Part shown: positions 17,065 to 19,112 of the stretch, piece after piece
Position numbering within the stretch: position 1 is the first letter of the stretch
Layout: every line of letters begins with the position of its first letter
NCBI GenBank assembly: GCA_009914755.4
Contig: CP068257.2
Span: 35,200,001-35,264,000, forward strand
Source of the DNA: the human T2T-CHM13v2.0 reference genome, Homo sapiens
Reading direction: 5' to 3'
Length of the DNA: 64,000 nucleotides
Notes under the pieces: model-generated
Databases searched by the model: none
What the model saw: the letters and a program-made list of their open reading frames with translations, nothing else
Told to the model about the DNA's origin: nothing
Made by a program: the position numbers and the translations under genes

Positions 17065-18525
17065 CAGCAGACACTTCTAAGGCATCCTATTCTGAGGTCA
17101 AAAATACATTTTTAGGCTGAAAGATGAGAATAACTTCTTTGGAGAAAGCAATGAGCAGCAGGAAGTGTGGGGGGTCAGGAGTCAGGCTAAGCACTCTGAC
17201 ACCTGTTAGAAGCCTTCTCGAGAACAGAAGATTCTCGAGATTCCCAGGTGAGGGTCTTCAGCCTCATCTCACCCATTCCCCAATGTCCTGGCCGGACAAA
17301 AGCCACAGGCTGGGGGAAGAGCCATTTCTAGCAGAGCAGGCAACTGCTTCTAAGATTTAAAGTAAATGGGGGATTCCAAGACGTCTGATTCAGATGATCA
17401 GTAAAGTCACTGATGGTTTAGTCTTTCCTAAATACAGTCATAAAGATTTTAATTTCACATTATGTCAAGAGTTTTATGGAGCCAAGGATCTTTTCAGTAC
17501 GAATATGCCTATACAAACCCCACAGAAATCAGGCGGCAAAAGCAATAATCATAACTATCACCTTTTGGGTCAAAAACTTGATTAAAGCCAAATGACAACT
17601 AAAATGTATTTTATTAGCAGTAAGATGAAATCCAGAGCATATGTCAAAGCTGGACTATGAAGTCATAATTTCTCTAGATCACAGTTGGAAGCAGTAATTT
17701 TATCACTCTGTCCCTCCCTAGCCTGTAAATCCAAATATAGTTCAGACAGCAGCTCTGGGCTGCAGGGTAGTATCCTACTCACTGTGAGACTCTGGGGAGG
17801 AGCTCCACTCTCACTGGCCCAGGCAGGCCACACCCAGCCTCCCTGCTCTCCCGAGTTTATGGCCCTGGGCACCTCTCCCAATCCAGGGCAGAATCAGCTG
17901 TCACAGGAGTAAGATGCTGCCACACACCCTGGATCAGCTGTCCCCAGTAGGCATGCCATGGAGTAGTCTAATTAGCCTCTGTGAAGATGTCATGTTTTGT
18001 GAGCAATGAGGAGGACCTAGACAATTTTAGACATGAGAACATTCCTTCGGGCATGTCAGAGGTGATGCTCTTTCCATGGGCCCTTTTGTGTGTTCTTAAT
18101 ACCCACAAAGACCTGATTCCCATTTTTAAAATCAAACCAGGAGTCCCCTGGCTTAGAGTGGCCCTCTACACCCCACCACCACCCTGCCCACAACTAACAC
18201 ATCACCTTACCCAAGAATGTCATGCAAATCTGCTCATGGTCTCTCCCCACTCCTATCCCCAGTGCCACGTCCGAACCTTCATTCTTATTACGGTTTGCTT
18301 GTATTCGTAGCAGAGTCCCACAAAAGTCCCCCGAGAAAATCTCCTAGTCACTGTGACAAAACTATTCTGGAACACGGCCCCACTTACACAGCTCCATACT
18401 GGTAAGGGCCGATGTCCTTCCACAGTCACCTCTCCCACTGCAAGACAGGAGCAAGAGCTACACTTACCCTGGGGCTGCAACAGGATGATTATTTGCTTAC
18501 CAGGACAGTGAAAATCCTGAGGGAA

Positions 18526-18748
18526 TTTTTTTTTATTATACTTTAAGTTTTAGGGTACATGTGCACAATGTGCAGGTTAGTTACATATGTATACATGTGA
18601 CATGCTGGTGCGCTGCACCCACTAACTCGTCATCTAGCATTAGGTATATCTCCCAATGCTATCCCTCCCCCCTCCCCCCACCCCACAACAGTCCCCAGAG
18701 TATGATGTTTCCCTTCCTGTGTCCATGTGTTCTCATTGTTCAATTCCC
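18526..18748 (-). mobile_element. L1 3' end (last ~220 bp of 3' UTR plus short poly-A), antisense orientation
   Basis: 'tttttttttattatactttaagttttagggtacatgtgcacaatgtgcaggttagttacatatgtatacatgtgacatgctggtgcgctgcacccactaactcgtcatctagcattaggtatatctcc..ccacaacagtccccagagtatgatgtttcccttcctgtgtccatgtgttctcattgttcaattccc' is the reverse complement of the canonical young-L1 3' terminus ('..aacctgcacaatgtgcacatgtaccctaaaacttaaagtataataaaaaa'). Confidence 0.85.
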
Positions 18749-19000
18749 TGCACAGCAAAAGAAACTACCATCAGAGTGAACAGGCAACCCACAAAATGGG
18801 AGAAAATTTTCGCAACCTACTCATCTGACAAAGGGCTAATATCCAGAATCTACAATGAACTCAAACAAATTTACAAGAAAAAAACAAACAACCCCATCAA
18901 AAAGTGGGCAAAGGACATGAACAGACACTTCTCAAAAGAAGACATTTATGCAGCCAAAAAACACATGAAAAAATGCTCACCATCACTGCTCATCAGGGAA
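18749..19000 (+). mobile_element. L1 ORF2 coding fragment (C-terminal region), sense orientation; inverted relative to the adjacent 3' end segment
   Basis: 'gcacagcaaaagaaactaccatcagagtgaacaggcaacccacaaaatgggagaaaattttcgcaacctactcatctgacaaagggctaatatccagaatctacaatgaactcaaacaaatttacaagaaaaaaacaaacaaccccatcaaaaagtgggcaaaggacatgaacagacacttctcaaaagaagacatttatgcagccaaaaaacacatgaaaaaatgctcaccatcactg'. ORF 18656-19018 translates to '..[76 protein letters not shown]..', a recognisable L1 ORF2p segment. Confidence 0.85.
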
Positions 19001-19112
19001 TTTTTTTTAAGGCGGTAAGTGTCAAGGCATGATCTAAGCTTCTTTCTCATGTAGTCAGAACTGGACCAAAATTGCCTGTTGAATGTCAATAAACATATAA
19101 AAACTGCACGGC

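What the first reader, a model, noticed from the sequence alone, without database searches (positions are those of the whole stretch)
18517..19010. Composite L1 insertion with twin-priming-like inversion: antisense 3' end fused to a sense ORF2 fragment
A ~220-bp antisense L1 3' terminus with a short poly-T (18526-18748) is joined head-to-head, with no intervening non-L1 sequence, to a ~250-bp sense fragment of L1 ORF2 (18749-19000). The sense fragment comes from roughly 400-650 bp upstream of the L1 3' end. Read on the minus strand this is [inverted upstream L1 segment]-[sense 3' end]-poly(A), the signature of L1 twin priming. The composite is bracketed by the near-identical motifs 'gagggaattttttttt' (18517-18535) and 'cagggaatttttttt' (18994-19009), suggesting one integration event with a ~14-bp target-site duplication. 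One caveat: the right-hand 'cagggaa' overlaps L1 'catcagagaa' sequence, so the exact breakpoint is ambiguous. About 250 bp of L1 between the two segments is missing, which is more than usual at twin-priming junctions.
Basis: partly seen in the sequence, partly recalled or inferred. Interest (0 to 1): 0.5.

Follow-up and report, generated by a model that had tools for sequence, protein, structure and literature searches.

The report
Ordinary twin-primed (5'-inverted) L1 insertion
This is one old LINE-1 retrotransposon copy that went in with its upstream piece flipped, a common and well-described outcome called twin priming; the only unusual points are a large (about 510 bp) missing middle piece and a short sequence coincidence at the junctions.

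Summary
Between two identical 14-bp target-site duplications (AGGGAATTTTTTTT, 18520-18533 and 18995-19008) lie two abutting L1 pieces. The first is the antisense L1 3' end (18535-18748: the last two ORF2 codons, the stop codon and the 3'UTR). The second is a sense ORF2 fragment (18748-18996/19000: ORF2p residues 1020-1103). The two share one base at the junction.

The reconstructed target, TTTTTTTT/AAGG, is a consensus L1 endonuclease site. Both pieces match the same reference L1 copy best and carry similar private divergence (about 1.5%). The 3'UTR has the GAG trinucleotide, which marks L1PA2 or older.

Everything fits a single twin-priming event. The sense fragment lies 728-976 nt from the L1 3' end, not 400-650. 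The missing stretch is 510-514 bp, not about 250. That is far above the reported median of 14.5 bp, but it is a known kind of outcome.

One detail is unexplained. The first-strand cDNA ends at GGGAATT, the only 7-nt complement of the target overhang's end in about 2 kb of L1. This creates a perfect 9-bp inverted repeat around the flipped piece (post hoc p about 0.001).

No orthologous empty site could be retrieved. The finding is ordinary and of low interest.

The parts
18520..18533 (.). Left target-site duplication, AGGGAATTTTTTTT. This is the original target strand whose T run primed first-strand cDNA.
   Evidence: Exact 14-nt direct repeat with 18995-19008 (D1; sequence). Chance estimate 2.5e-4.
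18534..18534 (-). The only T (A on the L1 strand) that cannot be assigned to the TSD. The poly(A) is effectively merged with the T8 of the target: 9 T in all, at 18526-18534.
   Evidence: Sequence. The left copy has 9 T and the right copy has 8.
18535..18748 (-). Non-inverted L1 3' segment, 214 nt. It covers ORF2 nt 3820-3828 (codons G1274 and N1275, then the TGA stop) plus the whole 3'UTR to ...GTATAAT. It carries the GAG trinucleotide (GACGAGTTAG), which marks L1PA2 or older.
   Evidence: (ORF2p ends ...SLIGGN at residue 1275). The meaning of GAG is from PMC7026601.
18748..18748 (.). Inversion junction. One base (C) is shared by both L1 alignments, giving 1-nt microhomology.
   Evidence: reference L014 positions 2263 and 1500 both align to window position 18748.
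18749..18996 (+). Inverted L1 segment, sense on the window + strand. It covers ORF2 nt 3058-3305 (ORF2p residues 1020 to about 1102). L1 similarity continues to 19000 with one mismatch (caGGgaa against L1 CAGAGAA).
18995..19008 (.). Right target-site duplication, AGGGAATTTTTTTT. Its first two bases (AG) overlap L1 sequence, which is the internal-priming microhomology. It is followed by AAGG, so the reconstructed target is TTTTTTTT/AAGG, matching the L1 endonuclease consensus TTTT/AA.
   Evidence: The endonuclease consensus is from PMC2912911 and PMC7026601.
18742..18750 (.). Left arm (AATTCCCTG) of a perfect 9-bp inverted repeat with 18994-19002 (CAGGGAATT). This arm is L1-derived and the right arm is TSD-derived.
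   Evidence: I2 and I6; 1 of 703 possible cDNA stop positions gives 7 nt or more of terminal identity.

Best explanation
This is a single L1 retrotransposition event (L1PA2/L1PA3-like, roughly 5-30 Myr old) resolved by twin priming.

**What is shown**
- The pre-insertion + strand read ...CCTG AGGGAATTTTTTTT/AAGGCGG...
- The nick position fits the ORF2p endonuclease consensus TTTT/AA.
- The product has the L1 3' end attached to the T run.

**What is inferred**
1. The T run annealed at the very start of the L1 poly(A). It primed first-strand cDNA rightwards on the + strand. That cDNA stopped after only 214 nt, at ORF2 nt 3820.
2. The other strand was cut 14 nt away. This released the 3' overhang 5'-AAAAAAAATTCCCT-3'.
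3. The overhang annealed inside the same L1 RNA at CAGAGAA (ORF2 nt 3303-3309). Its two terminal bases paired, and 6 of its last 8 bases paired overall. It primed a second cDNA that ran 249 nt upstream, to nt 3057.
4. The two cDNA 3' ends were joined with 1 nt of microhomology, and the gaps were filled.

The RNA between nt 3306 and 3819 was never copied into the product. That left a 510-514 bp internal deletion. The result is an inert, rearranged L1 fragment of about 460 bp flanked by 14-bp duplications.
For: - **Segment identity, orientation and contiguity:**
- **TSD:** exact 14-bp duplication bracketing the composite, with a low chance estimate.
- **Target site:** TTTT/AA (consensus per PMC2912911).
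- **Flanks:** no L1 sequence outside the TSDs.
- **Order of pieces:** the inverted piece lies upstream of the non-inverted piece in L1 coordinates, as the model requires.
- **Microhomology:** 2 nt at the priming junction and 1 nt at the inversion junction. These are within the ranges reported for 605 5'-inverted L1s (PMC2912911).
- **Same source family:** L014 is the best reference for both pieces. It differs at 4/249 and 5/214 positions (read by eye from the alignment; one search gives 98.0% and 96.9% over the BLAST spans). Both pieces share its state at every panel-variable site. Private substitutions are 4/248 against 3/214 (Fisher p=1).
[quoted passage not shown] Extreme cases with a very short non-inverted part are documented (PMC2837659).
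Against: - The internal deletion (510-514 bp) is far larger than the reported median of 14.5 bp.
- The non-inverted arm (214 nt) is shorter than the inverted arm (249 nt). Usually the poly(dT)-primed arm is about 2.6-fold longer.
- There is essentially no poly(A) beyond the target's own T8 run.
- The plain model does not explain why first-strand cDNA stops exactly at a 7-nt match to the overhang.
- No empty-site orthologue was obtained. Two metagenome scans and one look-up by protein identity found nothing.
- The subfamily call rests on a panel of contaminant-derived L1 copies, not a curated consensus library.
Confidence: 0.85

Rival explanations
1. Two-template event. The first strand was primed on one L1 RNA. 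The reciprocal overhang was extended on a different L1 RNA (a 'dual priming'-like event) or captured a stray L1 cDNA. The two pieces would then never have been on one molecule, and no internal 'deletion' occurred.
For: - It would make the 510-bp gap irrelevant.
- Extension of the reciprocal end on a different mRNA has been seen in experimental and cancer L1 events (bioRxiv 10.1101/2024.12.14.628481).
- Dual priming has been proposed as a mechanism (PMC2837659).
Against: - Both pieces share the same subfamily states and the same best reference copy.
- The inverted piece lies upstream of the non-inverted piece, as expected for one RNA.
- The sequence cannot separate two RNAs of the same subfamily from one RNA.
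Confidence: 0.06
2. Twin priming at the stop-codon site GGGAATT (nt 3820-3826), using 7 nt of microhomology and leaving no gap at the inversion point. A separate 514-bp deletion next to the right TSD followed, between the imperfect direct repeats AATTCCCa and ATTTCTCT.
For: It explains the 7-nt identity between the overhang and the cDNA1 end. A primer-site overlap is the expected signature when first-strand cDNA runs up to the internal priming site.
Against: - It needs a second event with one endpoint exactly at the TSD/L1 boundary.
- The overhang's terminal T would be mismatched (T opposite U3819) at that site.
- The repeats that would mediate the deletion match at only 6 of 8 positions.
Confidence: 0.05
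3. A conventional 5'-truncated L1 insertion that already carried an internal deletion. The 246-bp piece was flipped later by recombination or template switching between the 9-bp inverted repeats.
For: A perfect 9-bp inverted repeat (13/16 over 16 nt) flanks exactly the inverted piece (I2). The un-flipped structure is a plausible 5'-truncated L1 with 2-nt microhomology at its 5' junction.
Against: - It requires three steps: insertion, internal deletion and inversion.
- The same sequence coincidence still has to arise first, by chance.
- A 9-bp repeat is very short to drive a germline inversion.
- Twin priming produces the observed structure in one step and accounts for about 30% of recent L1 insertions (PMC2912911).
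Confidence: 0.03
4. Two independent L1 insertions that happen to abut.
For: None beyond the opposite orientations.
Against: - The sense fragment lacks an L1 3' end and poly(A), so it is not a stand-alone TPRT product.
- There is no L1 sequence left of 18525 or right of 19000.
- One 14-bp TSD brackets both pieces.
- Both pieces have equal private divergence and the same subfamily states.
Confidence: 0.01

Closest known systems
Twin-primed (5'-inverted) L1 insertions (Ostertag & Kazazian 2001 model; surveyed in PMC2912911 and bioRxiv 10.1101/2024.08.27.596794)
   Same: - An inverted upstream segment joined to a non-inverted 3' end.
- A 14-bp TSD around the whole composite.
- A TTTT/AA target.
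- Microhomology at the priming junction and at the inversion junction.
- An internal deletion at the inversion point.
   Different: - The internal deletion is 510-514 bp, against a reported median of 14.5 bp.
- The non-inverted arm is shorter than the inverted arm.
- No poly(A) can be distinguished beyond the target's T run.
Twin-priming 'inversion-deletion' variants with very short non-inverted portions (Meyer et al. 2010, PMC2837659)
   Same: First-strand synthesis stops early. The result is a large stretch of uncopied L1 between the poly(A) side and the internally primed, inverted piece.
   Different: In those 39 loci the first reverse transcriptase never left the poly(A). Here it copied 214 nt, the whole 3'UTR plus 9 nt of ORF2, so this locus sits between the classical form and that variant.
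L1PA2/L1PA3 primate-specific L1 subfamilies
   Same: - GAG rather than ACA or ACG at the 3'UTR diagnostic trinucleotide (PMC7026601).
- A rather than G in CTTAAAGT.
- Retained CpGs.
- About 1.5% private divergence.
   Different: The exact subfamily was not assigned because no curated consensus library was available. CACATTGTG suggests L1PA3, but that rests on my memory only.

Membership tests
Twin-primed (5'-inverted) L1 insertion | Two segments of L1 in opposite orientation, directly abutting | tested here: met
   The alignments end at 18748 and start at 18748, sharing one base.
Twin-primed (5'-inverted) L1 insertion | The non-inverted segment carries the L1 3' end with an A tail next to a TSD; the inverted segment derives from further 5' in L1 | tested here: met
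   The non-inverted segment is ORF2 nt 3820-4033 (to ...GTATAAT) followed by A9. The inverted segment is nt 3057-3305. The A run is largely shared with the TSD.
Twin-primed (5'-inverted) L1 insertion | One target-site duplication flanks the whole composite | tested here: met
   14/14 identical, at 18520-18533 and 18995-19008. Random expectation is 2.5e-4.
Twin-primed (5'-inverted) L1 insertion | L1 endonuclease-type target (TTTT/AA on the primed strand) | tested here: met
   The reconstructed empty site is ...GGGAATTTTTTTT/AAGGCGG.
Twin-primed (5'-inverted) L1 insertion | Microhomology between the target overhang and L1 at the internally primed junction, and at the inversion junction | tested here: met
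   2 nt exact (AG) at the priming junction, with 6 of the overhang's last 8 bases pairing. 1 nt (C) at the inversion junction. In the literature, 95% of 5'-inverted L1s have 5' microhomology, mostly 2-5 bp.
Twin-primed (5'-inverted) L1 insertion | Small deletion or duplication at the inversion point (typical, not obligatory) | tested here: not met
   510-514 bp are missing, against a median of 14.5 bp. Larger deletions are a recognised outcome, so this is atypical rather than disqualifying.
Twin-primed (5'-inverted) L1 insertion | Both segments come from one source element (same subfamily and age) | tested here: met
   Both share the best reference copy, L014 (98.0% and 96.9%). Both show identical states at panel-variable sites. 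Private substitutions are 4/248 against 3/214. The counts are small, and the reference panel comes from contaminant contigs.
Twin-primed (5'-inverted) L1 insertion | Orthologous empty site shows both segments absent together | not testable with these tools
   No primate genomes were accessible. Flank searches of metagenome contigs and a look-up of the junction ORF found nothing.
L1PA2 or older (not L1HS) | GAG rather than ACA/ACG at the diagnostic 3'UTR trinucleotide | tested here: met
   The window reads GATGAC-GAG-TTAG. The rule is from PMC7026601.

The most novel reading that the evidence does not exclude
The stop of first-strand cDNA exactly at GGGAATT may not be chance. GGGAATT (ORF2 nt 3820-3826) is the only 7-nt complement of the target overhang's 3' end in the last ~2 kb of L1.

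One reading is that the reciprocal target strand first docked on the L1 RNA at that site. There it was not extendable, because its terminal T sits opposite U. That docking set where first-strand synthesis ended, and possibly where the second strand was nicked, 1 nt beyond the hybrid. The overhang then re-annealed 514 nt upstream, where its terminus pairs, and primed the inverted cDNA.

If this were general, large internal deletions in twin-primed L1s would mark two-step docking of the second target strand on the RNA. That would give a sequence-level handle on how second-strand cleavage and priming are coupled in L1 integration.
Probability: 0.15. Interest if true: 0.45.

Novelty: already known. 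Interest (0 to 1): 0.13.

Why it matters
The finding matters little in itself. 5'-inverted L1 copies make up about 10% of human L1s and about 30% of recent insertions (PMC2912911), and this one is an inert fragment of about 460 bp.

It is a clean textbook example with every junction resolvable. It sits at the large-deletion end of the twin-priming spectrum.

The one point with wider reach is the exact match between the target overhang and the end of the first-strand cDNA. If that match recurs across many inverted L1s with large internal deletions, it would bear on the open question of how the second target strand is engaged during L1 integration.

Tried and rejected
- **L1 references inside the window:** self-BLAST found only a short old L1 3' end near 6600-6800, which was no use as a reference.
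- **L1 copies in viral contigs:** none found.
- **L1 copies in GTDB 'bacterial' assemblies:** the scan returned 76 human-contaminant L1 loci. These became the reference panel.
- **Empty or filled orthologous site:** exact 24-mers from the left flank plus TSD and from the right flank found nothing in metagenome contigs. The 120-aa ORF spanning the junctions is not in the protein-position index.
- **Ostertag & Kazazian 2001:** the paper is not held, by DOI or by PMC id. The model is therefore cited through later papers.
- **Supplements of PMC2912911:** they hold no junction sequences of inverted L1s, so the generality of the overhang/cDNA-end identity could not be tested.
- **Fold-back of first-strand cDNA onto the left TSD:** the 8-bp stem (I6) is not part of the predicted minimum-energy ssDNA fold, and the fold is no better than shuffles (z=-0.62). 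This idea was not favoured.
- **Two independent insertions, and endonuclease-independent capture:** both rejected on the TSD, the TTTT/AA site and the absence of flanking L1 sequence.

Full report
**Context**

The window is primate-type DNA packed with Alu elements. An Alu carried inside reference locus L037 matches about 30 places in the window, including 19123-19403 just to the right of the finding.

**Anatomy**

I had no repeat library. I therefore recovered L1 references by scanning species-representative 'bacterial' assemblies with the translated fragment. That scan returned 76 loci, which are plainly human L1 contamination.

BLAST of these references against the window gives two hits in the region:
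- Reference L014 positions 2263-2486 align to window 18748-18525, on the minus strand.
- Reference L014 positions 1500-1752 align to window 18748-19000, on the plus strand.

The two alignments share base 18748. The pieces therefore abut, with 1 nt of microhomology and no filler.

The plus-strand piece translates without stops to ORF2p residues 1020-1103 of 1275 (E=9e-49 to solved human ORF2p structures). ORF2p ends ...SLIGGN at residue 1275. The minus-strand piece begins GGG AAT TGA, which is codons 1274 and 1275 followed by the stop codon.

In ORF2 nucleotide numbering the two pieces are as follows:
- The inverted piece is nt 3057-3305. L1 similarity continues to nt 3309 with one mismatch.
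- The non-inverted piece is nt 3820-4033, ending at ...GTATAAT.

In 26 of 31 reference copies that span both pieces, the pieces are exactly 510 bp apart. One of the exceptions carries an Alu insertion.

The missing stretch is 510-514 bp, not about 250 bp. The sense fragment lies 728-976 nt from the L1 3' end, not 400-650 nt.

**Flanks**

The exact direct repeat is AGGGAATTTTTTTT, at 18520-18533 and 18995-19008 (D1). In 20,000 random pairs of 36-bp windows at the same spacing in this window, a shared run of 14 nt or more occurred 5 times.

Removing the insert gives ...CCTGAGGGAATTTTTTTT/AAGGCGG... This is a TTTT/AA endonuclease site on the strand that carries the poly(T) (consensus as quoted in PMC2912911 and PMC7026601).

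The left copy has one extra T. The A tail is therefore indistinguishable from the target's own T8 run, so priming must have started at the very beginning of the poly(A).

There is no L1 similarity left of 18525 or right of 19000.

**Junction detail**

At the right junction, the L1 sequence ...CATCAG and the TSD AGGGAA... overlap by AG. All 15 references used have CAGAGAA where the window has CAGGGAA. The G at 18997 is therefore target-derived.

The overhang 5'-AAAAAAAATTCCCT-3' would pair with L1 RNA AGAGAAAU at 6 of 8 positions, including the two 3'-terminal bases. It is what internal priming predicts: 95% of 605 5'-inverted L1s show such microhomology, mostly 2-5 bp (PMC2912911).

**One event or two?**

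The evidence favours one source element.
- The 3'UTR reads GACGAGTTAG. GAG at this trinucleotide marks L1PA2 or older, ACA marks L1Hs-Ta and ACG marks pre-Ta (PMC7026601).
- At every site where the reference panel is polymorphic, both pieces carry the states of the same reference group. L014 is the best match for both pieces, at 98.0% and 96.9%.
- Substitutions seen in none, or only one, of the 15 panel copies number 4 in 248 nt for the inverted piece. They number 3 in 214 nt for the 3' piece (Fisher p=1.0).
- Pooled divergence is 1.5% (95% CI 0.6-3.1%). At 1.0-1.5e-9 substitutions per site per year (textbook rates, my assumption), this gives about 10-15 Myr, with a range of 4-31 Myr.

This age is compatible with L1PA2/L1PA3. 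My recollection that CACATTGTG is an L1PA3 state is untested here.

A sense ORF2 fragment without a 3' end or poly(A) cannot be an independent TPRT product.

**Mechanism**

All of this fits twin priming as described in the literature read here. The nicked T-rich strand primes on the poly(A). The staggered second nick frees a 3' overhang that anneals inside the same RNA and primes a second, oppositely oriented cDNA. The two cDNA ends are then joined by microhomology.

[quoted passage not shown] Such a deletion is present in 66% of 1,703 somatic inverted insertions, with a median of 14.5 bp (bioRxiv 10.1101/2024.08.27.596794).

This locus is atypical in three respects:
- The deletion is 510-514 bp.
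- The poly(dT)-primed arm is short (214 nt against 249 nt, where it is usually about 2.6-fold longer).
- There is no separate A tail.

Meyer et al. (PMC2837659) describe the extreme of this spectrum, in which the first reverse transcriptase never leaves the poly(A).

**An unexplained coincidence**

The flipped piece is flanked by a perfect 9-bp inverted repeat: 18742-18750 AATTCCCTG and 18994-19002 CAGGGAATT. Over 16 nt the match is 13/16 (I2).

The left arm is L1, namely the reverse complement of nt 3820-3826 plus two bases. The right arm is the TSD. Equivalently, the 3' end of the first-strand cDNA (...AATTCCC) is identical to the 3' end of the overhang (...AATTCCCT).

GGGAATT at nt 3820 is the only 7-nt complement of the overhang's end between ORF2 nt 2000 and the L1 3' end in reference L014. 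If the cDNA stop were uniform between nt 3310 and 4012, only 1 of 703 positions would give 7 nt or more of terminal identity. That p of about 0.0014 is post hoc.

I considered four readings:
- The overhang docked at this site but could not be extended, because its terminal T sits opposite U. It then re-annealed at the upstream site.
- Priming occurred at this site and a 514-bp deletion followed.
- The cDNA folded back on the left TSD and its flap was removed. Remodelling of this kind at ORF2p-induced ends is proposed in bioRxiv 10.1101/2024.12.14.628481. However, the stem is not in the predicted ssDNA fold.
- It is chance.

One locus cannot decide between these.

A tandem private substitution (GC to CT at 18989-18990), 5-6 nt from the right junction, raises the inverted-repeat match from 11/16 to 13/16. 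It is also unexplained.

**What could not be done**

No primate orthologue could be reached, so the empty-site test remains open. No curated L1 consensus was available, so the subfamily is bounded rather than assigned.

**Verdict**

The feature is an ordinary, already-known kind of L1 insertion.

Noticed in passing
window 18742-18750 and 18994-19002: A perfect 9-bp inverted repeat (AATTCCCTG / CAGGGAATT) flanks exactly the inverted L1 piece. The first-strand cDNA end is identical to the target overhang end, a match seen at 1 of 703 possible stop positions.
   Followed up: partly
window 18989-18990: A tandem private substitution (L1 consensus GC, window CT) lies 5-6 nt from the L1/TSD junction. 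It is absent from all 15 panel L1 copies and increases the complementarity of the inverted repeat.
   Followed up: no
window 34121-34238 (+): Rfam 5S rRNA match over the full model (53.7 bits against a gathering score of 38). It is probably a 5S pseudogene or retrocopy in this Alu-rich region.
   Followed up: no
window 30496-30643 (-): Rfam Metazoa_SRP match just above threshold (72.3 against 70). It coincides with an Alu-like hit at 30487-30767, so it is most likely an Alu rather than a 7SL gene.
   Followed up: no
window 6345-6798 (+) and 44602-44765 (-): Older L1 fragments: a 3' end at 82-88% identity to the young references, and an ORF2 piece at about 77.6% identity.
   Followed up: no
window 28252-28575 and 57664-57866: Minisatellite-like tandem arrays: a 42-bp unit in 7.8 copies (78% matches) and a 70-bp unit in 2.9 copies.
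   Followed up: no
loci L001-L076 (GTDB species-representative assemblies): 76 contigs filed under bacterial or archaeal genomes (Streptomyces JCM strains, Mycobacterium, Campylobacter concisus and others) encode human L1 ORF2 at 90-98% identity. They are human DNA contamination in public assemblies. L037 also carries an Alu inserted in its L1.
   Followed up: partly
window, about 30 sites (for example 19123-19403, 20635-20925, 9498-9795): Very high Alu density: about 30 Alu-like matches in 64 kb. This suggests a gene-rich, GC-moderate primate region.
   Followed up: no
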